A stretch of DNA of 64,000 bases from Pecten maximus (taxonomy: Eukaryota): the NCBI RefSeq assembly GCF_902652985.1, contig NC_047020.1, positions 3,906,001-3,970,000 of the forward strand, in the 5' to 3' direction. This document shows positions 6,401-61,866 of this stretch, one piece after another. The number at the start of each line of letters is the position of its first letter. The first letter of the stretch is position 1. The position numbers were made by a program, and so were the translations under genes. A model generated the notes under the pieces. That model was not told the origin of the DNA. It saw only the letters and a list, made by a program, of their open reading frames with translations, and ran no database searches.

Positions 6401-9400
6401 AGTGCGTTTAGAACAGCGGTAAGTACTAGTGTGGTGAACCACTGTTGTGTATTATGTTACCTGTCGTTCCGGACTGTCCGTCTTCTACTTTGTTTATTAG
6501 TCTCGACGTCAGGTAGACGTTTGTAAGTAATATACACCTAAGAGGTTTAGAAGCGTTCTAAAGATCCTGATTTTATAATAGGTGGCGCTAGTTTCCCTTT
6601 CGCGAGAGTATAAAAGGCGGCGGTCGAAACTAGATATGGTTCACTTCTTCGTCTGACACGAACGAGATAAGGCCGGACAAAAAGGTATTAGTTAAGATAT
6701 AGACGTGCCTGAACAAGGCTTCCCTATATCAAAGTACTTATTGTGTATGTAATAACTTACGGTAGAGTACGGAGGCAGATGTGCCTGAGTAAGGCTTCCC
6801 TTCTCCGTGGGGACTCTAGTTAGTCTATGTGGTCGGTACATCACATACGTTGTAAGTGTATTAATATCAATAGCCTTGGGTCTGCTCGTGGTTTATAAGA
6901 AAGTGTCTGAGAGCCCCGAGTGTTGTACTGTACGTACATGCCTAACGTTAAATATATGCTAGGGAGTGCTCAGTAAGAAGTGAGTACTCAGTGAGTGCTC
7001 GGTAGAAGTGAGTGCTCGGTAGCAGTGAGTACTCAGTGAAGTGAGCGCTCGGTAAAAGTGAGCACTCAGTCAAAGTGAGTGCTCACTCGGTCAATGAGTG
7101 TTGAAACTCTCTTACCCTCATATATAAAGTAATCATAGTTGTATAATGTGATATTGCCCGGAATAAACCCCAGATAGGGAAGATTCATTTTGGTCAGGGA
7201 GCACTCATTATTTCATGTAGTATATTATTCCGTTCTGTTAATATAACTAGCTCTCTGTTTAGGTATATTTGTATTTCTACTGTAGGATTACTCAGAGGAA
7301 CTGAGCAATCATTGTGTTATATTTCAACTGTATAGCTAGTTGGTACTTGATGTATATTACATAAACACAGCCAGGTCAGCTGTATATTTCTGTATATTTT
7401 TGCACTGAGGACTCGAGTAAAACTAATTATATGTTAGACAATATGGATCATCAGTAGTGACTGATACGGACCCTGTAAACGTCACATAATTTGGTGGCAG
7501 CGGTGGTGATCCTGTTGTCTATATTTTTGGTGTGCTCGAATACTCAGGTTTAAATAAAATTTGATATCAGAATTAAACTGTTATTTTTGTATTGATGAAA
7601 ATGGCCAATGGAACTCCTCGCATTGATTTGATGGACTCTGAAAAGCGGTTTGGTGAGCGAAGTGACCAAAGTTATCATTCAACACCAAAACAGCCTATGT
7701 CAAAAGGGAGCAGTCATTATAGAGACTCTGGATTTATGTCTATGCATGCAGCTGATAAAACTCGTGCAGAAAAGAGGGACTTGTCTGTGCTCTATAGCAG
7801 TATGATGGACAATCACGAAGATCTTTCATCTCCAGATGAGATAGATAAGGAGATTGAACAAATGCAGGAGCAGTTACGCCGGCTTGATATTGAAAATCAG
7901 AGCCTGCGAGAGACTTCGAGTAGACATGGACTGAAGGATTCATCGACATATAAAGGGAATCATTGTGTCCGAAGTAAAACAGAGAGCAGTCCTAAAGTAA
8001 GGTTCTCTGACAGCACATATTCGCCTCATTTTGATGAAGGGAATAAGGAGGACTATATTACCTGTCGTGACAGCAATCAGAGGAGGTCAGCTCGATTAAA
8101 GGAGAAGGAACATATATCAAGCTATGACTCTGCTCGGGTGAAGAGAATGAATCCAAGGGCAATGTTGGATATGGATGATAGTGATTACGAGGATCAATCT
8201 TCAGTAAGAAAACACAAAACAAAATTTGTGTCTGTTAAAGCTTCTACTTATGATGGCACAACACCTTGGAGGGATTACCTGTCTCATTTTGAGGCATGCG
8301 CTCGAATCAATAGATGGACAGAGCAGGAGATGGGTCTGTATCTAGCTGTAAGTTTGAGGGGACAAGCTCAAGGTATACTTGGGGATTTGCCTGCCAGGAA
8401 ACAGGAGCATTATTTCTCACTGATAACAGCTCTTGAACAACGGTTTGCCCCACCCAATCAAACGGAGCTTTATCGAGTACAATTGCTGGAGAGGAGGCAG
8501 CGAGCCAATGAGACACTTCCAGAACTTGGTCAAGCTATTCGAAGATTAGTCAACTTGACTTATCCCACTGTTGAAGTTGGGGTGAGAGAAACATTGGCCA
8601 AACAACAGTTTCTAGAATCCTTAGCTGACTCAGATATGCGAATTCGTATAAAACAAGCCAGACCTGATAATCTGACGGATGCGATTCATCTTGCAGTAGA
8701 GCTGGAAGCTTACAAGAAAGCAGAAAAACATGGAAATGAAGGTCGCTCATATCTCAGAACAGCAAGTACAGAGAGTACTGAATCGACACATTCAGCAAAA
8801 TCTGAGAAATCTGCGATGGAATCTATGTTGAGTAGTATCCAGCAAAAGTTGGAGAAGATGCAAACTGATATTAGTCAGCTCCAAGCTGTAAGGAAAAAGC
8901 AGAACCGACCTGCCCAGCAAGGACAGGATGCAAAGAATAGCACTGATCGACGTTGTTATAAGTGTCAAGAAATAGGACATTTACGCCGAGACTGCCCTCA
9001 GCTTAAGAAAGAGTCAAAGAAAGCATCAAATGGAGTAGCTAATCCGGTAAGGACAAGGACGAGAAAGCGAAGTTGTAAACCATCCGCTGGGATTGGAATT
9101 TCCTCGGCTGCTCAAGAGGCTGGACTATACATCAATGCTGAGGTACAGCATACCAAAGTGAAACTTTTGGTTGATACTGGAGCCACAGTGACCATTCTGT
9201 CACAGGATGCATATGAGAAAATTCCAGAGGAGAGAAGACCCAAATTGAAAGAGGTTAAAAATGATATCATGGCCGCTAATGGCAGTGAGTTGAAAGTCCT
9301 TGGTCAGGGAGGATTTATGATTAAGCCAGAAGGTTGCCGGGACGTGTACTTTGAGGCTGTGGTAGCTAAACTAAGCACAGAAGGAATTCTTGGTCTTGAC

Positions 9401-12400
9401 TTCTTGAAATCAAGAAATGGCTTGATTGATTTAAAGCGAGGATCTTTAGTGTTGGACGACGTGCCAGTGGACACTAAGTATGAGGGTACACTTGGATGCT
9501 TTCGAGTTGTTGCCTCCGAAAAGATAACCATTCCTGGTAAGAGTGAGATGGTTATTGCTGGGGAATTACGTTCTCCAGCAGGTGAACATATGAAGAGCGA
9601 GTCACTTCTTATTGAAGGAGCTGACTCCTTCCTGAAAAATGACAAGGCTCTCGTTGCCCGATCATTGGTTTGTTATGAGACTACAGTTCCTGTGAGACTC
9701 ATGAATCTTCAGGAAGATCCGCAAACGGTCTACCCAGGTACAAATATTGCTCGTGCTAGTCCTGTAACAAGTGTCATTGAGACAACATCCTCGTCTAGTT
9801 GTGCACCCTCTGGAGAGCTCAGAGGGGATTTACACCAACTACTACAGAGGTCAAAAGAACACCTGACTCCGGAACAGAGCAATAAAGTCAAATCTTTGTT
9901 ATTGGCATACAAGAATCTGTTCGCAGCCACTGACAGTGATCTTGGACGAACAACAGTGGTGAAACACAAAATAGAAACTGGTGATGCCCGACCCATCAAA
10001 CAACCACTTAGGAGAGTGCCAGCACATTTGAGCCCTGAGGTGGATAGACAAGTCGATGATATGCTGAACCGTGGAGTAATTCAGAAGTCTACCAGCCCCT
10101 GGTCATCGGGTATTGTTTTAGTACAAAAGAAAGACGGTAGTCTCAGATTCTGTGTTGACTATAGGCGTCTCAATGCTGTGAGCATTCATGATGCCTATCC
10201 ATTGCCACGCATTGATGAGGCATTGGACCATCTTTCGGGGTGTACTTGGTTTTCTACACTCGACCTGAATGCAGGGTACTGGCAAGTTGAACTAGAGAGG
10301 GAGGATCGTCCTAAAACTGCCTTTTCAACTAGGACTGGATTATATGAATTCCAGGTGATGCCTTTTGGGTTGACTTCTGCTCCAGCCACATTTGAGCGGC
10401 TGATGGAGACTGTGTTAGCCGGACTTCAGTGGCAGATTTGTCTCATTTATTTAGATGATGTGATCGTGGTTGGAAAGGATTTTGAGGACATGTTACAAAA
10501 TCTGCAAACTGTGTTTGAAAGACTCCTTACTGCAGGATTGAAACTTAAAACAAAGAAATGCCAACTGTTTGGAAAAGAGGTGATCTATCTCGGACATGTG
10601 ATATCAGAGGAAGGAATAGCTACTGATAATGAAAAAGTGAAAGTTGTTGAACAGTGGCCTGTGCCGAAGAACATTAAAGAGGTGAGATCATTTCTTGGAT
10701 TCTGTGGATATTACAGGAGGTTTGTAAGAAACTTTTCACAGATTGCTAGCTGTCTGCACCGACTGACTGAGAAAGACAGAACTTTTGAGTGGACCGATGC
10801 CTGCCAGGAGGCATTCACCACACTAAAGCATCAGCTAATCAATGCCCCTATACTGGCCCATCCAGATTTCACTCAACCGTTTATTCTGGACACTGATGCA
10901 AGTGACAAAGCTATTGGTGCAGTTCTTTCTCAAAACATTGATGGGAATGAGAGACCTATCGCATATGCAGGCCGGATGCTGACGAAATCTGAAAGGAGTT
11001 ACTGTGTAACAAGAAAAGAGTTGTTAGCAGTTGTGCACTTTGTGAAACATTTCAAACACTACCTGTATGGTAGGAGGTTTACGGTGAGAACGGATCACAG
11101 TTCTCTACGCTGGCTACTGAACTTTAAGGCGCCAGAGGGTCAAATGGCCAGATGGCTACAGGTTTTGAGTTCCTATAACATGGACATCAAACACAGACCA
11201 GGAAGTCAGCATCGCAATGCGGATGCCTTAAGTCGGATACCATGCCGACAATGTGGGTTCGATCCCATGTGGGAGAAACATACCGAGACGGAGACTGAAA
11301 ATACTGCCATGGCATGCAGCCCCAAAACGAAGGAGGACTCGGAAGACCAAAAATCAAAATTTGAGTCGTCAATACTTCAACAAAAGCAGGAAGATGATGC
11401 TGATATTGCAGTAGTGTTTAAATGGGTGAGGGAAGGAGAGAAACCTCCATACAAGGAAATTGGTGACCGGAGCATAATCGTGAAAACATTATGGGCCCAA
11501 TTTGAATCCCTGGTGATACATGGTGACATGTTGTATCGGAAAAACCCCAATTCAGCAACAAGTCTACAAGCAATTGTTCCTGCAGCAGAAAGACGAACAG
11601 TGTTGACCCACAGTCATGACAATCGGAGTTCTGGACACTTGGGTATAAAGAAGACTTTGGCCAAAATTCGACAAAGTTTCTATTGGCCAGGAATTCAAAA
11701 CGATGTGAAACAATATGTGATCGGATGTCCTCAGTGTAGCAAACGAAAGAGTTCAAGTAAAACCAAGCGAGCCCCTATGCAGATGGTTGAGTCGGGTTTT
11801 CCCATGGAGAGGATAGCCATAGATATTCTCTGTGAACTCCCAAGTACACAGCAGGGTAACCGACACATATTGGTAGTTTCGGACTACTATACCAAGTGGA
11901 CCGAGAGTTTTGCCATGCCAAACATGGAAGCACAGACTGTGGCCAAGATTCTCGTAGAGGAGGTGATAGCTAGGTTTGGTGTACCTTACAGCCTCCATTC
12001 CGATCAGGGATCCCAATTTGAAAGTTCTCTCTTTCGGGAGATGTGCTTATTACTACAAATCAACAAAACACATACCACTCCCTATCATCCCAAATCAGAT
12101 GGAATGGTAGAACGGTTCAACAAGACGCTTGTGACCATGCTGAGTGCCTTTGTAAATAACCATCAGACTGATTGGGACGAACACTTGCCATATGTAATGA
12201 TGGCGTACCGCTCTACAGAACACGAGACCACTGGGAATTCGCCTAATGCTATGATGCTAGGAAGGGAAACGAGTACTCCCCTAGACATTCAGTATGAAAT
12301 GCCAAGGAATATCAAGACCATTCCTCAAAACCAATGGGCTTGGCAGTTAAAGGAGAAGATGGAAAATGCACACGAACTGGTTAGGAAACACTCAAAAGGT

Positions 12401-15400
12401 GCGATGCTCCGACAAAAGCGTTATCATGACCAGAAGTTGTCTTGGACCAAGTTTGAGCCAGGTGATTCTGTCTATGTCTTCTTCCCAAATATTCTGGCTG
12501 GGACCACCCACAAGTTAGCAAGCCGATGGCGGGGACCTTTTAAGATACTCACTAGATTGACAGAGGTGACCTATAGGGTTCCGTGTGGTTATAGGGGAAA
12601 GACTCAAGTGATCCATGCTGACCGCATGAGACCGAGACACCCCCAAATATTGCGTGGTGAAAGTAGAGCGGAAGCATTCGGACGAAAAGATGTGCAAGTT
12701 CAGGTGGATGAAACGTGTTTTGAGCAAAGTCAGAATGAGAGTGTAGAGAAAACTGAGAAAAACTTGGTGCTTGAGGAATTAGGTGAAAAATTCAGTAGTG
12801 AGAATGAGTGTGAACCTAATGGAGCAAACCCAAGGCGTACGCGACGTAAACCTCAATGGCATTCTGATTATACTTCATGCTACTAGAATGGTCACTACTG
12901 TTTAGTAAACTACCTCTCTTTGTCATTGCAGACATCCCCATAATGGTTAAGACCAAGACAACTCCCGTCAAACAGTGCCCTATGTGCTCCTTCCGTGCCA
13001 ACAACATGGATGACATGAGGAAGCATATCCTGGAGTGTGGCCTAGAGACAATGGAAAGGAAGACTCTCACGTGCCCTGATTGCAGCTACAAAACTTTCCG
13101 TGCTGCTAATATGAATCGGCACCGTAAACGTCATACTGACAACGACAGGAGTGCTCCCAAGGCTGTGGAACAGAGTTTGGAGGAAGACCGGCCTTCAACG
13201 TCATCCCAAGCTCCCGCTGTACAAACTGATGTAGAGAGCTGGAAGGCGCAAGATCCTGGTGACCTCCTGGGGGAGATATCTGAATCTTCTGAGGGTAATG
13301 GCTTGTCTTCTGAAGATGAGGGAGACAGTCTTCTGGTCGGGCGTACTATCAGAAGACCAACGCGACCAGAACCAGTTCGAGCCCCAAAGAGGAAGTCAGA
13401 AACTGCAACTTCAGTCAAGCCCCATCCGAAGGATCCTATCAACATGGTTCCAATGCCAGTGGTAAGCACTGCCCCTAGTGCAAAGAAAACATGCACCTAC
13501 GTTAATGTTGCCACTCAGACAGAGCAAGAGCCGCCTGCTAGCCGAAGGACTGTAACGAAGACTACCCGGTATTCAGAGGGAGGACGGGACATCCAGATAG
13601 TCGAGTTTTTCGAGTTCTTTGAGCAGGAGAACCTCAATCGCTTTTCCTAAATCGATTTTCATGTAACTTCCTGAATAAACCCTTGAGTGTTAGTTATTGT
13701 TTTAGCTTTACTTGTGTTAGAACGTGGGGACACGTGTTGCTCGGAGGCGTGGGTAGTGTGGTGAACCACTGTTGTGTATTATGTTACCTGTCGTTCCGGA
13801 CTGTCCGTCTTCTACTTTGTTTATTAGTCTCGACGTCAGGTAGATGTTTGTAAGTAATATACACCTAAGAGGTTTAGAAGCGTTCTAAAGATCCTGATTT
13901 TATAATAGGTGGCGCTAGTTTCCCTTTCGCGAGAGTATAAAAGGCGGCGGTCGAAACTAGATATGGTTCACTTCTTCGTCTGACACGAACGAGATAAGGC
14001 CGGACAAAAAGGTATTAGTTAAGATATAGACGTGCCTGAACAAGGCTTCCCTATATCAAAGTACTTATTGTGTATGTAATAACTTACGGTAGAGTACGGA
14101 GGCAGATGTGCCTGAGTAAGGCTTCCCTTCTCCGTGGGGACTCTAGTTAGTCTATGTGGTCGGTACATCACATACGTTGTAAGTGTATTAATATCAATAG
14201 CCTTGGGTCTGCTCGTGGTTTATAAGAAAGTGTCTGAGAGCCCCGAGTGTTGTACTGTACGTACATGCCTAACGTTAAATATATGCTAGGGAGTGCTCAG
14301 TAAGAAGTGAGTACTCAGTGAGTGCTCGGTAGAAGTGAGTGCTCGGTAGCAGTGAGTACTCAGTGAAGTGAGCGCTCGGTAAAAGTGAGCACTCAGTCAA
14401 AGTGAGTGCTCACTCGGTCAATGAGTGTTGAAACTCTCTTACCCTCATATATAAAGTAATCATAGTTGTATAATGTGATATTGCCCGGAATAAACCCCAG
14501 ATAGGGAAGATTCATTTTGGTCAGGGAGCACTCATTATTTCATGTAGTATATTATTCCGTTCTGTTAATATAACTAGCTCTCTGTTTAGGTATATTTGTA
14601 TTTCTACTGTAGGATTACTCAGAGGAACTGAGCAATCATTGTGTTATATTTCAACTGTATAGCTAGTTGGTACTTGATGTATATTACATAAACACAGCCA
14701 GGTCAGCTGTATATTTCTGTATATTTTTGCACTGAGGACTCGAGTAAAACTAATTATATGTTAGACAATATGGATCATCAGTAGTGACTGATACGGACCC
14801 TGTAAACGTCACACTAACTTCTTTCGTCGGCATCGAAAAAGATCGCCCCCATTATGTAAGAATTATGTATGTCCAATAACAATGCCCTTGCTAAGAAAAG
14901 GCAATAAAATATATTTATCAAAACAGCACATCTACTTAATAGAGCTTAGTATCCCTATAATACTTACAACGCTTGATCTGCGACACCTCCTCTGAGTAGG
15001 GGAGACTGAACACAAGGACTGGTACTACTGTAATGGGAACACAGGTTAGTAAATGATCGTTTACAATTAATGTGAGACTAAAAGAAAAGAAAATATTATT
15101 GAATTTCAATATTTTACCTAAAACGAACTTTTGTTGGAAATGTAATTTGTACGTACATATATTAACATTTAATATGGGATTTATGTACACGATGGCCATA
15201 TCGTGCTGATTATTGAACTATAATTATTATTCCGCGATGGTTCAAATTTTCATAGATTTACAACAAATGTAAACAATGTTATAGATATAATGAAACAGGC
15301 TATATCATATTTTCTCTATGTTTCGATATTTTATTTTATCATCCAACATATTGAAAATACAAATCCTGAATGCAGCAACCATTCCCATATAAGAATTAGG

Positions 15401-51041: not shown

Positions 51042-53353
51042 ATGTCTAAGTCAGAATCCCGGGTCCTGCTGCTGGAAAACGACCACCTGGAAATGGCTAC
51101 ATCTGACCAAGAAAAGGACGGTGAGTGTCAATCTAAAATTCGACACATTCTTAAAGTGTATCCTGAATGTTTTTTTCATATCTTAATTGCGAATTCGTTC
51201 GCTTTTACATCACAAGTTATCGAAAACCGTCTTAGCAGTAACATACATTATATGTACATGTATTTTGAGATTGTTTTGACATATAGGTATTCGTTAACGT
51301 TGATATTCAATCATAATTTTACCGACCACATTATCATTTCTCTAGGATTTTCTGATTTAAACACATTGTACTCCATTGCCGTTTTAATTTTGCTTATCTG
51401 TCAATGAGCGGTGCATAAAAGTTTCTTTTTTAGTTTGAACGTTATTTTTAATTAAAATTCACTGTAAACTAATGCACAACAGTCAAACATATTCCTTATA
51501 ACGCTAATTGATAAACAATTACATTTAAAGAGTAATATTAATTTGTGAGAGATATGCAAAAAAAAAACAACAAAAAAAACATGGAGTATGTTAACTTTAT
51601 TTATTTCACAACAATTGCGAAACAGATTATGTCGCCCCGGATAGATGCGCGCGAGCTCGAGGGGTAACCCACGTGGTCGGGCATGTGACCCCTTACCATT
51701 TCACGTCCGATCGGGGAATCAAAACACAGAGCTTTGCATACATGTACATTGCATTACTCTATACAAGAGATAGCTTAAATATAAGATTTGTTTATATGTT
51801 TTCAGGATTTTCCTCTGGGTATGATTCCGCACAGGAAATATCCGATACAGAAACGAGTATGGAAAAACCACCGCAACATTACTTAACATGTGACCGTACA
51901 TGTGATAGCGAGTCCGAAGACGAGGCTACAGAAGTGATGAGTTACAAGAGCACCAACGCCCTCTGTGAACATCTCAAATACATCGTTTCCATGCCAGAGT
52001 TGTGTGACGTCACGTTTTTGGTTGGTCCAACCAAGGTTCCGGTTTACGGCGTAAAGGCAATTCTTGGCACCAGAAGCAGGTAAGTTTACCATTGAGATAA
52101 ACATTCTATTGTAATTTTTTCGTCTACATTATAATTATCATAACATTTTTCTACATAAAAATAATGCTTTCTGAGGCCAGGGGAGCCCGGGGGATAATCA
52201 TGAAATTACGTATTGGTTAGAAATTAGTAGTCTTGTATTTCTCATTTATCATTAGGGCCTATATGTTCCTGGTCCTGTGTGGAGAATTGAGAGAACTTTA
52301 CCAGTAGTGTAAATATAGTGTTTGTGAAATTCAACATGTTTCTATCACTATTTCAGAGTACTGTATCAACTCATTCTAAATCAGCAACATAAAACGAATG
52401 CAGAAAGAGCGTCATTCAAAAAGCTACGGAAGTCACATTCGAAATCACATGTCGTGATCGACGTGAACAAGTACGAGCCAGAGGACTTCCGAATGTTGAT
52501 ACAATTTGTTCATTGTGGTTCTGTAGACATCGGAGTCCATAACGTAGCAGGTACGTTTACGATTAAATCATTCTAAAGTTTTGTTATGGCTAATTTCTAT
52601 TTTATACTGCCGAACATACAAATGATGGCCTCGAACATACACACGCACATATGTATATACATGTATCATGATTTGTTTTATCAGTAACTTGTTCTGATGA
52701 ACATAATCTGAAAACGATGCATGTCTTTTTCAGTTGGTATTATAGGCACTATGCTTCTGTTTCCTTTTAAACGCTATAATTTGCAATGATCCACAATAGG
52801 TGTACTGTGTATACCTGGCACATTTTCAATAATGATAAAACAATACGTTTGATTGTGTAGGATTACTATGCGGGGCATATCAGTTTGGTTTGGAGGACCT
52901 CCGATCAGCCTGCTGGGACTTCGTCCGTCGATCCCTCGACAACATCGATGGACTAGATACTGCGCATGCGTTGATGGCATCAGCTTTCCGGTATAACCAA
53001 CACAAGACAACACGGAAACTCGTCTCTAAGGTAACATATCATTTTCGAGTTTGTACTGCTAGAGAGTGTATCTTTATGTCTATAAAGCAGCTGATAAGTA
53101 ATCATACATTGTATAAGAAAATAGTCACCTGGACTAAAATTAGGATTGCCAATTTATTTCCATAGTATAACTAGTATCTATTAACTTAAAATGGGTAATC
53201 ACTTTCATTTAAATCGATGCAAATATATAACCCGTTTCCTTTTTTTCACAGATCAACAAGTCGCTACAAGAAATCGAACAAAAGAAAAAGGAAAACAATC
53301 AGCAAACATCGAAAGGCTCCAAGAGGACATCAAAGGTGTCTACAACAGTATAG
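51042..53353 (+). CDS. BTB/POZ-domain protein (serine-enriched-protein-like, 272 aa)
   Basis: Exons 51042-51120, 51806-52079, 52357-52550, 52861-53030, 53252-53353 with matched phases; BTB motifs ELCDVTFLVG..VYGVKAILGTRSRV, FRMLIQFVHCG, LLCGAYQFGLEDLRSAC. Confidence 0.9.
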
Positions 53354-58017: not shown

Positions 58018-61000
58018 TTACACTGGTGTGAGTATGGAGTCGATCTGGTGGATGACTCCATTGGTCATTGGTTGGTCGGCCTTCAGGACTAGAGCATTAT
58101 TGATGTGGACACCTGTTAACACAGCAGAACAATGTTCAATCATTGTTTTACCGACAATCGACATCATTCCTCAAACCTATGTTAAATGTATCATTGGAAA
58201 ATTACTTGTTACTAGAGTTACTGATGTCATATAGTTATTGTTACTACTGATATATATTACCTATTGTTACTAGACATAGGTAATATTTATTTTACTAGGG
58301 ATATCGATGTGTAAATATTCATTGTTAGTAGAGTGATCGATATCTGATATTTGTTATTACGAGAGTAATCAAAAGTATTGTTACTTAAATCTAATATTGA
58401 TTGTTATTAGAGTTATCGATATAAATATTGATTGTTATTAGAGTTATCGACATAAATATTGATTGTTATCAGAGTTATCGATATAAATATTGATTGCTAT
58501 TAGAGTTATCGATATAAATATTGATTGTTATTAGAGTTATCGACATAAATATTGATTGTTATTAGAGTTATCGACATACATGTTGATTGTTATTAGAGTT
58601 ATCGACATAAATATTGATTGTTATTAGAGTTATCGATATAAATATTGATTGTTATTAGAGTTATCGATATAAATATTGATTGTTATTAGAGTTATCGATA
58701 TAAATATTGATTGTTATTAGAGTTATCGATATAAATATTGATTGCTATTAGAGTTATCGATATAAATATTGATTGTTATTAGAGTTATCGATATAAATAT
58801 TGATTGTTATTAGAGTTATCGATATACATATTGATTGTTATTAGAGTTATCGACATAAATATTGATTGTTATTTGAGTTATCGACATACATGTTGATTGT
58901 TAATGAAGTTATCTGATAATAATTGTTACTAGAGATATTGATATTTGATATTTAGATATTTTAGATATATCGATTTGTAGACACATACTGACATACTTAC
59001 CAGTGCTGTCAATGTGGACGGTGAGGTCAGTGCCTTGGAGAGTGGTCAGCGTTTGTCCGTCCGTCAGTCCAGCTGAGAACAGAGTCTTGGGGACCACGTG
59101 GTATTTCAGTATATCTGGGGAAAAGATTATAATCGAATACAAATATATAGTCTCGGCCTTTCGACAATACCATTTTGCAGTCTCAAATAACCATTTATCT
59201 TTATTGAAATTACTAAGTGTACACATAGCTTACAAGCTGTCGATTTTAAAAAATGATATCATAAAAGCTATCCGTAGGCTTTGTAACACGAGATAGAGGC
59301 AATGAAATCGTCCATCTCCTCAATCAACCAATCAGGTTATAAAAAAATATCATTTTCGGCATGTTTTGTTTTGCTATTTTGAAAACATTTCTTTTGCCAT
59401 AGGCAGTGTCCTCTTGTCTTTAATGCATTATTTGTGCGATTAATACAGTTAATTGATAGGAACATGTTTCGGTCAGAAACACCTCTCGTATTGACACGAG
59501 TGATTGCAATTATGTCATTAAAATGTAACAAAATTTAAGTTACTTGCGAAAGCATCCTTATCGGCGGTGAGTGACTGGAGACTGCCAATCTGCTGGTTGA
59601 AAGCATCGTTGTTTGGGGCAAAGACTGTGAATGTTCCGCCTTTAAACAAAGACGAATAAAACAATACGTCAAAACGAATGGTAAGTTACACTAAAGATAA
59701 TGATCTTATTAAATCACTTCCATTTCACTATAGCACGTGATTCATTGAAAATTAGCTGCAGAGTTTATTGATAAATAGAAATTCTTACTCGAGGCCAATG
59801 CAGGCTCCAGACCCGTAAAAACGAGAGCGGAGAACAGATCGATGTACTCGCTCTCATCTTTCCCCATGTACTGCGAGATAGACAAAACGGCGGGAAACAT
59901 GACAGCATTGATGGCGTGCAGAACTCCGTTCGTCAAAATGATGTCACCTCCGGTAACTGTAGAGCCCTCTAAAACTACAGCCTGTGGGACAAACGTATCT
60001 TCTGACAATTATCGTGTTAACAATATGAGTAAAGTTAGTCATTTATTATCATGTTATAGATAATGTCAGTTATTGTGTCATAGATGATGTCAGTAATTGT
60101 GTCATAGATGATGTCAGTAATTGTGAAATGAATGATGTCAGTTATTGTGTTGTAGATGATGTCAGTTATTGTGTAATGAATGATGTCAGTTATTGTGTTA
60201 TGGATGATGTCAGTTATTGTATTTTGGATGATGTCAGTTATTGTGTTATGGATGATGTCAGTTGTTGTGTTATGGATGATGTCAGTTATTGTGTAATGAA
60301 TGATGTCAGTTATTGTGTTATGGATGGTGTCAGTTATTGTATTATGTATGATGTCAGTTATTGTGTAATGAATGATGTCAGTTATTGTGTTTGGATGACG
60401 TCAGTTATTGTGTTTGGATGACGTCAGTTATTGTGTAATGAATTATGTCAGTTATTGTGTTATGGATGGTGTCAGTTATTGTGTTATGGATGATGTCAGT
60501 TATTGTGTAATGAATGATGTCAGTTATTGTTTTATCGATGATGTCAGTTATTGTGTAATGGATGATGTCAGTTATTGTATTATGTCTGGTGTCAGTTATT
60601 GTGTAATGAATGATGTCAGTTATTGTGTTATATATGATGTCAGTTATTGTGTAATGAATGATGTCAGTTATTGTGTTTGGATGACGTCAGTTATTGTGTT
60701 ATGGATAATGTCAGTTATTGTGTTATGGATGGTGTCAGTTATTGTGTTATGAATGATGTCAGTTATTGTGTTATAGATGATGTCAGTTATTGTGTAATGA
60801 ATGATGTCAGTTATTGTGTTTGGATGACGTCAGTTATTGTGTTATGGATAATGTCAGTTATTGTGTTATGGATGGTGTCAGTTATTGTATTATGTATGAT
60901 GTCAGTTATTGTGTTATGAATGATGTCAGTTATTGTGTTTGGATGACGTCAGTTATTGTGTTATGGACGATGTCAGTTGTTGTGTTTGAATGATGCCAGT

Positions 61001-61866
61001 TGTTGTGTTTGAATGATGTCAGTTATTGTGAAATGAATGATGTCAGTTGTTGTGTTATGGATGATGTCAGTTGTTGTGCTTGAATGATGTCAGTTGTTGT
61101 GTTTGAATGATGTCAGTTATTGTGAAATGAATGATGTCAGTTATTGTGTTATGAATGATGTCAGTTATTGTGTTATGAATGATGTCAGTCATTGTGTTAT
61201 GGATAATGTCAGTTATTGTGTAATGAATGATGTCAGTTATTGTGTTATGGATGATGTCAGTTATTGTGTTATGGATGATGTCAGTTATTGTGTTATGGAT
61301 GATGTCAGTTATTGTGTAATGGATGACGTCAGTTATTGTGTTATGAACGATGTCAGTTATTGTGTAATGCAATATTTAATTGATAATTCGGCTATCCCAC
61401 TCCTAGCTTATGTTATTTTGGTTTCTATTTTCCCTTTAGTATTAAAAAAAGAATGGACATATGTAGATATTATTATTTGTAATATACCCATTCGGATACT
61501 TGTTAACGTACCGTCAGGGAGAGCGGTATTGACGCCTGGCTGGTTTGGGAGATATGTTTTTGTAACTTACCCCGTTCGGATACTTGTCATCGTACAGACA
61601 GGGAGAGTATTGACGCCTGGCTGGTTTGGGATATATGTTTTTGTAACTTACCCCGTTGGGATACTTGTTGACGTAGATTGTTCTGTTGTTGAGGGAAGTG
61701 ACGGTCATGCCATTGGTGAGGAGTGGTGCGATCAGGATACCATTTGTCACGTGGTATAGAAGAAGGTTGGAAAGTGCTGTCGTGTCAACCCCCTGTAGGT
61801 TACTGAGCAGAGCGGGGGGCAGCTTATTAAAGGCATCATTGGTTGGGGCGAACATGGTGAGCGTAC
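58018..61866 (-). CDS. Two-FAS1 domain protein, TGFBI-like (gene C, 5'-partial; exon 1 not found in window)
   Basis: Exons 61866-61652, 59981-59789, 59639-59544, 59114-59001, 58112-58018; TLTMFAPTNDAF, LLYHV, NGVLHAINAVM, FTVFAPNNDAF, NGVIHQIDSIL. Confidence 0.9.
58395..58905. repeat. 31-bp minisatellite (TGATTGTTATTAGAGTTATCGATATAAATAT)
   Basis: About 16 copies in the last FAS1-C intron. Confidence 0.95.
60058..61369. repeat. 24-bp minisatellite (GATGATGTCAGTTATTGTGTTATG)
   Basis: About 55 copies in a FAS1-C intron; explains the DDVSYCVM ORFs. Confidence 0.97.
61477..61675. repeat. 81-bp tandem duplication spanning a FAS1-C exon end and splice donor
   Basis: TTGTAACTTACCCCGTT(G/C)GGATACTTGT at 61641 and 61560, with a degenerate copy at 61477. 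Confidence 0.85.

What the first reader, a model, noticed from the sequence alone, without database searches (positions are those of the whole stretch)
12943..13650. Gypsy retrotransposon carries a zinc-finger regulatory ORF in the env position
Between pol and the 3' LTR lies an intact 235-aa ORF with a C2HC and a C2H2 finger, an acidic Ser-rich segment (DLLGEISESSEGNGLSSEDEGD) and an NLS-like PKRK. It has no transmembrane or env features. It looks like an element-encoded transcription regulator or anti-silencing factor, analogous in logic to complex-retrovirus accessory genes. With the LTR array and LC8 motifs, this is the best candidate for an undescribed system. I cannot verify novelty without a search.
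Basis: partly seen in the sequence, partly recalled or inferred. Interest (0 to 1): 0.9.

Follow-up and report, generated by a model that had tools for sequence, protein, structure and literature searches.

The report
Bivalve retrotransposons' spliced zinc-finger accessory gene
A large group of virus-like jumping genes in scallops carries, where retroviruses keep their envelope gene, a conserved small gene for a two-zinc-finger protein that is apparently made from its own spliced RNA and likely regulates the element from the cell nucleus, a kind of accessory gene we found no description of.

Summary
Observation confirmed. Between pol and the 3' LTR of a young, tRNA-Leu-primed Gypsy element lies an intact 235-codon ORF with a C2HC finger, a C2H2 finger, no membrane segment and a TQT motif.

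It is a real gene. Eight young copies show 21 synonymous against 11 non-synonymous variants. One probable-RNA contig joins an LTR donor to the acceptor before its ATG (GT..AG, 6,247 nt). Ten further lineages in this genome carry it right after pol, and named homologues in scallops, oysters and pearl oyster are often filed as 'REST-like' host genes. More distant Gypsy lineages also have post-pol finger ORFs (20 of 26 loci), three with a BTB domain.

Finger 2 keeps DNA-reading residues. Finger 1 best matches NEMO's ubiquitin-binding finger.

Best reading (about 0.5): a trans-acting nuclear regulator of its own LTR, dimerised by LC8. Against it: finger residues did not co-vary clearly with LTR motifs, and ORF2-less sub-families have multiplied. 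A pol-free single copy may be domesticated. Ten literature searches found no description; Repbase and Dfam could not be checked.

The parts
6430..7486 (+). 5' LTR (TGT...ACA, 1057 bp)
   Evidence: 1 mismatch to the 3' LTR. Flanks CTAG / CTAA: 3 of 4 bases of a 4-bp target duplication; exact 4-bp duplications are readable in at least 9 of the 27 loci printed
6609..6614 (+). TATA box of the LTR
   Evidence: a TATA followed 70-130 nt later by an AG|GT donor-like site in 8 of 9 lineage LTRs
6685..6690 (+). splice donor (intron start) for the ORF2 RNA
   Evidence: run X3 contig joins 6684 to 12932; a run X1 contig leaves the element at 6684 into 29 foreign letters
6964..7084 (+). LTR array of 8 palindromic GAGnnCTC sites (10 per LTR; copy at 14291-14411)
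   Evidence: 20 sites in the two LTRs, 4 in the internal region, 2 in the rest of the window
7492..7506 (+). primer-binding site for tRNA-Leu(AAG)
7595..12886 (+). gag-pol single ORF, 1763 aa; an LC8-like xQV motif near the integrase C-terminus
12906..12931 (+). pyrimidine tract and CAG splice acceptor
   Evidence: sequence; junction; an AG acceptor with a T-rich tract lies 0-11 nt before the ATG in the other lineages printed
12943..13650 (+). ORF2, 235 aa accessory protein
12976..13038 (+). finger 1, C2HC, acidic helix; best PDB match is the NEMO zinc finger
   Evidence: E 0.0017; optineurin finger E 0.06; ligands conserved in 41-46 of 42-46 rows
13072..13134 (+). finger 2, C2H2 with K/R at -1, N/D at +3, R at +6
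   Evidence: K/R 43/46, N 27 and D 12 of 46, R 46/46
13240..13266 (+). conserved short motif W-x3-D-P-G-x-L, partner unknown
   Evidence: W 43, D 43, P 42, G 43, L 38 of 46
13351..13395 (+). basic R-K-x-T-x-P ... P-K-R-K stretch, possible nuclear localisation signal
   Evidence: R137 43/45, T140 41/45, P142 42/45; PKRK only 21-33 of 37-45
13504..13524 (+). LC8-type anchor (TQT followed by E)
   Evidence: motif rules from PMC6607443 passages
13543..13620 (+). predicted C-terminal beta-hairpin, one basic and one acidic strand
   Evidence: E201-212, E215-226, pLDDT about 82
13741..13754 (+). polypurine-tract region, identical in sense to 14 nt of the primer tRNA-Leu
13757..14813 (+). 3' LTR

Best explanation
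ORF2 is a conserved accessory gene in the env position of a bivalve Gypsy clade, apparently made from an LTR-driven spliced RNA, and its protein likely acts in the nucleus, in trans, as a sequence-specific regulator of the element's own LTR. Shown: the gene, its linkage to pol, purifying selection, and one spliced contig. Inferred steps: (1) the short spliced RNA gives ORF2 alone; (2) the basic stretch would take it to the nucleus; (3) the host hub protein LC8 would bind the TQT anchor and hold two chains together beside the C-terminal hairpin, which makes up for having only one DNA-reading finger; (4) finger 2 would read a G-A-G triplet, present as palindromic GAGnnCTC repeats just downstream of the LTR promoter; (5) finger 1 (ubiquitin-binding type) and the W-x3-DPG motif would recruit or block host chromatin factors. 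The net effect is most likely to keep the family transcribed. ORF2-less copies would then ride on protein made by ORF2-bearing relatives.
For: Selection: 21 synonymous vs 11 non-synonymous variant codons in 8 copies, binomial p about 1e-5 even at a transition weight of 4. Linkage to pol in 10 further lineages with RT 62-80% identical, inside one RT clade (16 rows, 100/97). Spliced contig GT..AG in 1 of 4 runs laid; 0 of 30 genomic ORF2 loci show that join as DNA. Finger 2 keeps K/R-1 (43/46) and R+6 (46/46) while +1, +2 and +5 vary, and the profile's best PDB matches are DNA-binding C2H2 arrays. The window LTR has 10 GAGnnCTC palindromes, and GAGC(A/G) is the top 5-mer in the 3 lineages with N at +3 and in none of 5 others. 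TQT-type anchor: Q 46/46, T/C at +1 46/46, D/E at +2 35/46, which fits the rules in PMC6607443 (passages). No membrane segment.
Against: The unbiased count did not support a code match. GCG was not enriched in any of 5 lineages with D at +3 (z -0.9 to 0.7), and GAG or GAGC was also raised in some non-N lineages (GAGC z 2.0-2.9 in L045, L056, L059; GAG z 2.0 in L084). The three N lineages are close kin, so they are not independent. A single finger reads only three bases. The array lies downstream of the TATA box and donor, so it is also in the RNA and folds strongly (z -8.0). ORF2 is cleanly missing from 8 of 11 examined copies of the L045 family and 6 of 9 of the L059 family. The splice rests on one contig of depth 3.2 from a run whose RNA status is a guess. 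Many TQT peptides do not bind LC8 (PMC6607443).
Confidence: 0.5

Rival explanations
1. ORF2 is a Rev/CERV-like factor. It binds the repeat array as structured RNA and helps the unspliced genomic RNA leave the nucleus or escape splicing.
For: A strong donor lies right after the transcription start in 8 of 9 lineage LTRs, so unspliced RNA must be protected. The array folds into stable hairpins. The donor region is replaced in ORF2-less L083. Precedent: Cer1 CERV (PMC10309623, passages).
Against: Finger 2 has a DNA-type residue pattern. ORF2-less L122 keeps its donor. Palindromic repeats fold well whatever their role. No export-signal test was made.
Confidence: 0.2
2. ORF2 is an integration or nuclear-import helper, a detachable counterpart of the chromovirus chromodomain. 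It tethers the integration complex to chromatin through ubiquitin or DNA, linked to integrase by LC8.
For: In two lineages (L031; L032, L033) pol runs in frame into ORF2 without a stop. The integrase tail has an LC8-like xQV motif in 4 of 7 lineages whose tail was printed. Finger 1 resembles a ubiquitin-binding finger.
Against: In the other lineages ORF2 is separate and has its own acceptor, which is kept even in the fused lineages. A deletion family without integrase keeps finger 2 to the C-terminus fused to Gag-PR. No insertion-site bias was tested.
Confidence: 0.12
3. ORF2 is a decoy or a brake. It either titrates LC8 or ubiquitin readers away from piRNA-guided silencing, or represses its own family to limit damage.
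For: LC8 is required for piRNA co-transcriptional silencing in Drosophila (PMC7861614, abstract). In two families ORF2-less copies outnumber ORF2-bearing ones, as expected if ORF2 is a cost in cis. A pol-free single-copy relative looks host-retained.
Against: One TQT site is a poor sponge. A pure decoy would not need an invariant R at +6 of finger 2. It is unknown whether bivalve silencing uses LC8.
Confidence: 0.15
4. ORF2 is a passenger, a captured host exon or chance ORF without function for the element.
For: It is dispensable in several sub-families. Selection looks weak in the L042/L043/L047 family (pS 0.025-0.08, pN 0.014-0.056).
Against: Synonymous bias in this frame only. Open frame and motifs kept across lineages whose synonymous sites are saturated. 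Conserved acceptor.
Confidence: 0.03

Closest known systems
CERV of the C. elegans Gypsy element Cer1 (PMC10309623; passages read)
   Same: Nuclear accessory protein of an animal Gypsy element, with a candidate NLS and a candidate zinc finger; acts on the element's own life cycle.
   Different: CERV has a C4-type Cys loop in a domain modelled as rings, shares its start with Gag and acts on RNA export. ORF2 has C2HC + C2H2 fingers, a TQT motif and its own ATG. No sequence comparison with CERV was run.
Non-env ORF3s of bdelloid rotifer LTR retrotransposons (PMC5408684; passages read)
   Same: Family-specific extra ORF after pol, in the env position; the paper says such ORFs are typically expressed from spliced messages.
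   Different: Those are GDSL esterase, DEDDy exonuclease, coiled-coil or membrane proteins; 'zinc' and 'finger' occur 0 times in that paper's main text.
VANC anti-silencing proteins of Arabidopsis VANDAL DNA transposons (PMC5735166; abstract read)
   Same: Element-encoded protein acting in trans on short targets that form tandem repeats varying between related elements: the logic proposed here.
   Different: Plant DNA transposon, shown to remove DNA methylation; here neither binding nor de-silencing is shown, and no homology is claimed.
ASCIZ/ATMIN transcription factor (search listing and abstract starts only)
   Same: LC8-binding, largely disordered transcription factor; the N-terminal C2H2 fingers are recalled, not read here.
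   Different: Host gene with many LC8 sites; ORF2 has one conserved site, a C2HC first finger and a terminal hairpin.
NEMO / optineurin CCHC ubiquitin-binding zinc finger (PDB 5aay, 2jvx, 5aaz; PMC6817665 passages)
   Same: Same C-x2-C-x12-H-x3-C spacing and similar helix; best PDB match of finger 1 (E 0.0017).
   Different: Only 2 of 46 family members match Pfam zf_C2H2_10 at E up to 0.1; ubiquitin binding untested.

Membership tests
Ty3/Gypsy (Metaviridae) LTR retrotransposon | Domain order PR-RT-RH-IN after a CCHC gag | tested here: met
Ty3/Gypsy (Metaviridae) LTR retrotransposon | Two LTRs TG..CA, PBS, PPT, short target duplication | tested here: met
   target duplication 3 of 4 bases here, exact in at least 9 sister loci
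Named Gypsy clade (Mag A/B/C, MolGy1-18, Gmr1, Osvaldo and others) | RT placement among reference elements | not testable with these tools
   No reference set was on hand; the tree holds only this genome's elements
Envelope gene (env) of errantiviruses / retroviruses | Signal peptide and transmembrane anchor, fusion-protein homology | tested here: not met
   max 19-residue hydropathy 0.42; no env family among 14 Pfam hits
Envelope gene (env) of errantiviruses / retroviruses | Position after pol and expression from a spliced RNA with a donor near the 5' end | tested here: met
   (one contig, 1 of 4 runs)
Classical DNA-binding C2H2 factors (REST/CTCF type) | Array of three or more C2H2 fingers with canonical linkers | tested here: not met
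   two fingers, the first C2HC; the 'REST-like' names rest on finger likeness only (inference)
Classical DNA-binding C2H2 factors (REST/CTCF type) | Base-contact residues at -1, +3, +6 | tested here: met
   finger 2 only; the code itself is recalled
VANC-like sequence-specific anti-silencing system | Protein specificity co-varies with the element's repeat motif | tested here: inconclusive
VANC-like sequence-specific anti-silencing system | Removes silencing marks from its own family in trans | not testable with these tools
   needs experiment
UBZ (NEMO-type ubiquitin-binding finger) | CCHC finger with NEMO-like helix | tested here: inconclusive
   PDB E 0.0017 for this copy; 2 of 46 members match the Pfam model
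UBZ (NEMO-type ubiquitin-binding finger) | Binds ubiquitin | not tested
LC8 client | TQT-type anchor with D/E/P at +2 in a disordered region | tested here: met
LC8 client | Measured binding | not testable with these tools
   needs calorimetry or pull-down

The most novel reading that the evidence does not exclude
A large share of bivalve Gypsy diversity consists of 'complex' retrotransposons. Each lineage carries a spliced accessory gene built as a double zinc finger plus a swappable assembly module (LC8 anchor and hairpin, BTB, or coiled coil) that recognises repeats in its own LTR and counters host silencing: an animal, retrotransposon version of the VANC arms race. ORF2-less cheaters exploit it in trans, and scallops have domesticated one copy as a host gene.
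Probability: 0.3. Interest if true: 0.88.

Novelty: new variant of a known kind. Interest (0 to 1): 0.7.

Why it matters
Regulatory accessory genes are a hallmark of complex retroviruses; among the papers read here only CERV is a worked-out case in an animal Gypsy element. Here such a gene is the rule in a wide set of lineages of one genome and has homologues across bivalves. It gives a short, testable protein and a candidate target inside the same element, so the question of how animal LTR elements promote their own expression against silencing becomes directly testable. It also has a practical edge: near-identical multi-copy 'RE1-silencing transcription factor-like' gene models in oysters and scallops are probably transposon genes, which can mislead gene-family and expression studies.

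Tried and rejected
- Env or membrane protein: rejected.
- Start at the upstream ATG 12877: rejected, because it lies inside the intron.
- Histone-H3-tail mimic for the conserved N-terminus M-V-[KN]-T-K-T-T-P: considered from memory; only the T-K pair matches; not pursued.
- Finger-code versus LTR-motif co-variation: suggestive, not supported.
- Two copies of residues 180-235 in the complex predictor: no answer, score 0.00, alignment not used; no bearing either way.
- Foldseek against PDB: no match at E up to 0.001, only generic fingers.
- Atlas search: unnamed clusters at 0.93-0.95, no function.
- Viral contigs: 0 of 17 candidate stretches.
- Metagenome contigs: 1 of 157, a 100% copy of this element, not independent.
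- The tool that returns contigs for a protein was closed, so linkage to pol and synteny in other species are untested.
- In one search the L011 codon count was mis-anchored (0:197) and is dropped; the other three fusion copies gave 5:3, 7:6 and 8:3.
- Low or absent cover of pol in the four runs is not used as evidence of expression level.
- L086's LTR was cut short (320 bp).
- RT tree: 14 locus ids were on the drop list as near-duplicates, and loci without one stop-free RT match of at least 330 residues were left out; the tree has no outgroup.

Full report
THE OBSERVATION. The window holds one complete Gypsy-type element: LTRs 6430-7486 and 13757-14813 (1057 bp, one mismatch), a primer site complementary to the host tRNA-Leu(AAG), one 1763-aa gag-pol ORF with CCHC, protease, RT, RNase H and integrase, and ORF2 at 12943-13650. 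ORF2 has a C2HC and a C2H2 finger, no hydrophobic segment (max 0.42), and one Pfam family above its cut-off (zf-H2C2_5). The host is a scallop-type bivalve, judged by the named closest homologues.

IT IS A GENE. The genome search gave 62 matches among 107 candidates; 10 cover the whole protein at 99-100%, one of them with a stop. Among 8 young copies, 21 distinct variant codons are synonymous and 11 are not, where 23-28% synonymous is expected (p 3e-7 to 9e-6). The other two frames give 5:25 and 5:26 with stops. In 6 gap-free copies ORF2 gave 11:4 plus one stop, and the last 480 codons of pol gave 21:17. Between lineages synonymous sites are saturated (pS 0.74-0.87) while pN in the finger region is 0.21-0.46. 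The bias is weak in one family, L042/L043/L047.

IT APPEARS TO BE SPLICED. A pyrimidine tract and CAG end 11 nt before the ATG, and an AG acceptor precedes the start in the other lineages too. Contigs of 4 of 24 listed runs were laid on the element. One contig of run X3 (RNA by guess, depth 3.2, 105 nt on the short side) joins 6684 to 12932, removing a 6,247-nt GT..AG intron. A contig of X1 (RNA on record) leaves the element at the same base 6684. None of the 30 genomic ORF2 loci compared has this join. A donor-like AG|GT follows the TATA box by 70-130 nt in 8 of 9 lineage LTRs. This is one contig, without the tool's DNA-run control.

IT BELONGS TO A CLADE, AND TO A WIDER HABIT. Ten further lineages (L031; L032/33; L034-40; L042/43/47; L044-46; L055/56; L059/80; L063; L086; L084/87; RT 62-80% identical) have the homologue directly after pol. 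Those with a usable RT fall in one clade of 16 rows, support 100/97 (unrooted). In L031 and L032/33 pol reads on in frame into ORF2. Forty more loci were picked from the 150 best integrase matches. Of the 14 at 64-79% integrase identity, 5 have ORF2 or pieces, 5 lack it cleanly and 4 are decayed or interrupted. Of the 26 at 50-60%, 23 have a post-pol ORF of 150 aa or more, 20 of these match a zinc-finger pattern (one more by eye), and 3 end in a BTB_2 domain (E 1e-9 to 2e-19). Others end in predicted-looking coiled or hairpin regions (by eye). Whether all these fingers share one origin is not shown. A profile search found many full-length homologues of 200-330 aa among poly-finger hits. Of 30 looked up, those with names are from Argopecten, Pinctada, Ostrea, Saccostrea and one symbiont genome bin; several clusters hold near-identical members called 'RE1-silencing transcription factor-like'. 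Their linkage to pol in those species could not be checked.

ANATOMY. In 46 homologues (A2) the conserved points are the N-terminus, the zinc ligands, K/R at -1, N or D at +3 and R at +6 of finger 2, W-x3-D-P-G-x-L, R-K-x-T-x-P, the Q-T anchor (Q 46/46) and a terminal basic/acidic pair of strands. AlphaFold models two fingers (pLDDT 77-88), a disordered middle and a beta-hairpin at 201-226 (pLDDT about 82). Finger 1 has an acidic, variable helix and its best solved match is the NEMO finger (E 0.0017), a CCHC ubiquitin-binding finger (PMC6817665, passages); only 2 of 46 members match that Pfam model. The anchor fits LC8 rules, but many such peptides do not bind (PMC6607443, passages).

MECHANISM. 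By the recalled C2H2 code, R/N/R reads G-A-G. Each LTR here has 10 GAGnnCTC palindromes, 8 in one array, against 2 in the window outside the element. A dimer held by LC8 would suit such sites. GAGC(A/G) was the top 5-mer in the 3 N+3 lineages and in none of 5 others. But direct counts showed no GCG excess in 5 D+3 lineages and some GAG/GAGC excess outside the N group, and the N lineages are kin. The test is therefore inconclusive. The array lies downstream of the promoter and folds as RNA (z -8.0), which keeps a Rev/CERV-like role open. ORF2 is not needed in cis: 8 of 11 examined L045-family copies and 6 of 9 L059-family copies lack it cleanly, as does L122 in the L034 family, whereas all 10 close integrase matches of the window family lie beside ORF2 sequence. 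This fits action in trans, or a gene that is a cost in cis. I put a trans-acting LTR regulator at 0.5, RNA export at 0.2, decoy or brake at 0.15, integration helper at 0.12 and passenger at 0.03.

DERIVATIVES. Seven loci (L011-14, L016, L018/19, L024/30) share a deletion that fuses Gag-protease in frame to ORF2 from about residue 33, dropping RT, integrase, the acceptor and finger 1; the same 3,266-nt skip is in runs X1 and X2. L041 is single-copy and has no pol or LTR match in 30 kb around it. It groups with Mizuhopecten and Ylistrum proteins (61-64% identity, support 98) as sister to the L045-type ORF2s: a candidate domesticated gene, synteny untested.

NOVELTY. Ten literature searches (seven aimed at prior descriptions of such an ORF, one at mollusc LTR surveys, two at LC8 and NEMO) listed no paper describing this ORF. 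'ORF' and 'zinc' (or 'zinc finger') occur 0 times in the main text of three mollusc and annelid LTR surveys (PMC6238403, PMC8556966, PMC9679248; term counts and passages). PMC12440569 (passages) names only chromodomain and envelope additions in the passages shown. Their supplements were not opened, and Repbase, Dfam and subscription journals could not be searched; an entry-level note in Repbase is plausible. The kind is known: CERV (passages), rotifer ORF3s (passages) and VANC (abstract). An earlier unchecked note of this scan reports a two-finger module fused to a Gypsy integrase in another genome; it is a lead only.

VERDICT. Real, selected, probably spliced accessory gene of a widespread bivalve Gypsy group; new variant of a known kind; function inferred, not shown. 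Interest 0.7.

Noticed in passing
window:13741-13754; also L031, L032, L040, L045, L056, L059, L063, L084, L085, L086: The polypurine-tract region is identical, in sense, to 14 nt of the variable arm and T-stem of the same tRNA-Leu that primes the minus strand (14/14 here; 11-14/14 in 10 other clade loci; 8/14 in L043; 6/14 in the distant L108). It may be chance likeness of a G-rich tract or a link between the tRNA primer and plus-strand priming. No literature search was made on it.
   Followed up: partly
L041:6697-7374 (G000:C10:29841196-29841870): Single-copy, pol-free, LTR-free ORF2 relative with 61-64% identical counterparts in two other scallop genera; candidate domesticated gene.
   Followed up: partly
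L011-L014, L016, L018/L019, L024/L030; join at window 9770/13037: Non-autonomous deletion family encoding a Gag-protease-ORF2 fusion (935 aa open in L066); its gag part is about 94% and its ORF2 part about 98% identical to the window element, so it looks recombinant.
   Followed up: partly
L103:3099-4319, L106:2590-4134, L112:3196-4437: A Gypsy sub-clade (RT support 100/99) whose post-pol ORF joins zinc fingers to a BTB_2 (KCTD/T1-type) domain.
   Followed up: partly
L099:3835-4362, L114:3673-4230: A lineage whose post-pol ORF has no zinc finger and no Pfam match in L099; looks coiled-coil.
   Followed up: no
window:6144-6428 and 14814-14830: The element sits at the end of a 50-bp tandem repeat; L050's element also lies beside a 50-bp array.
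   Followed up: no
window:6684: A contig of run X1 continues from the LTR donor into 29 letters foreign to the element: some LTR copy may drive a chimeric host transcript.
   Followed up: no
window:21434-21814, 40128-40430, 51742-52083, 58909-59226, 61514-61855: Short ORFs that look like host exons (lipocalin-like, fasciclin-like, BTB-like by eye); labels recalled, not tested.
   Followed up: no
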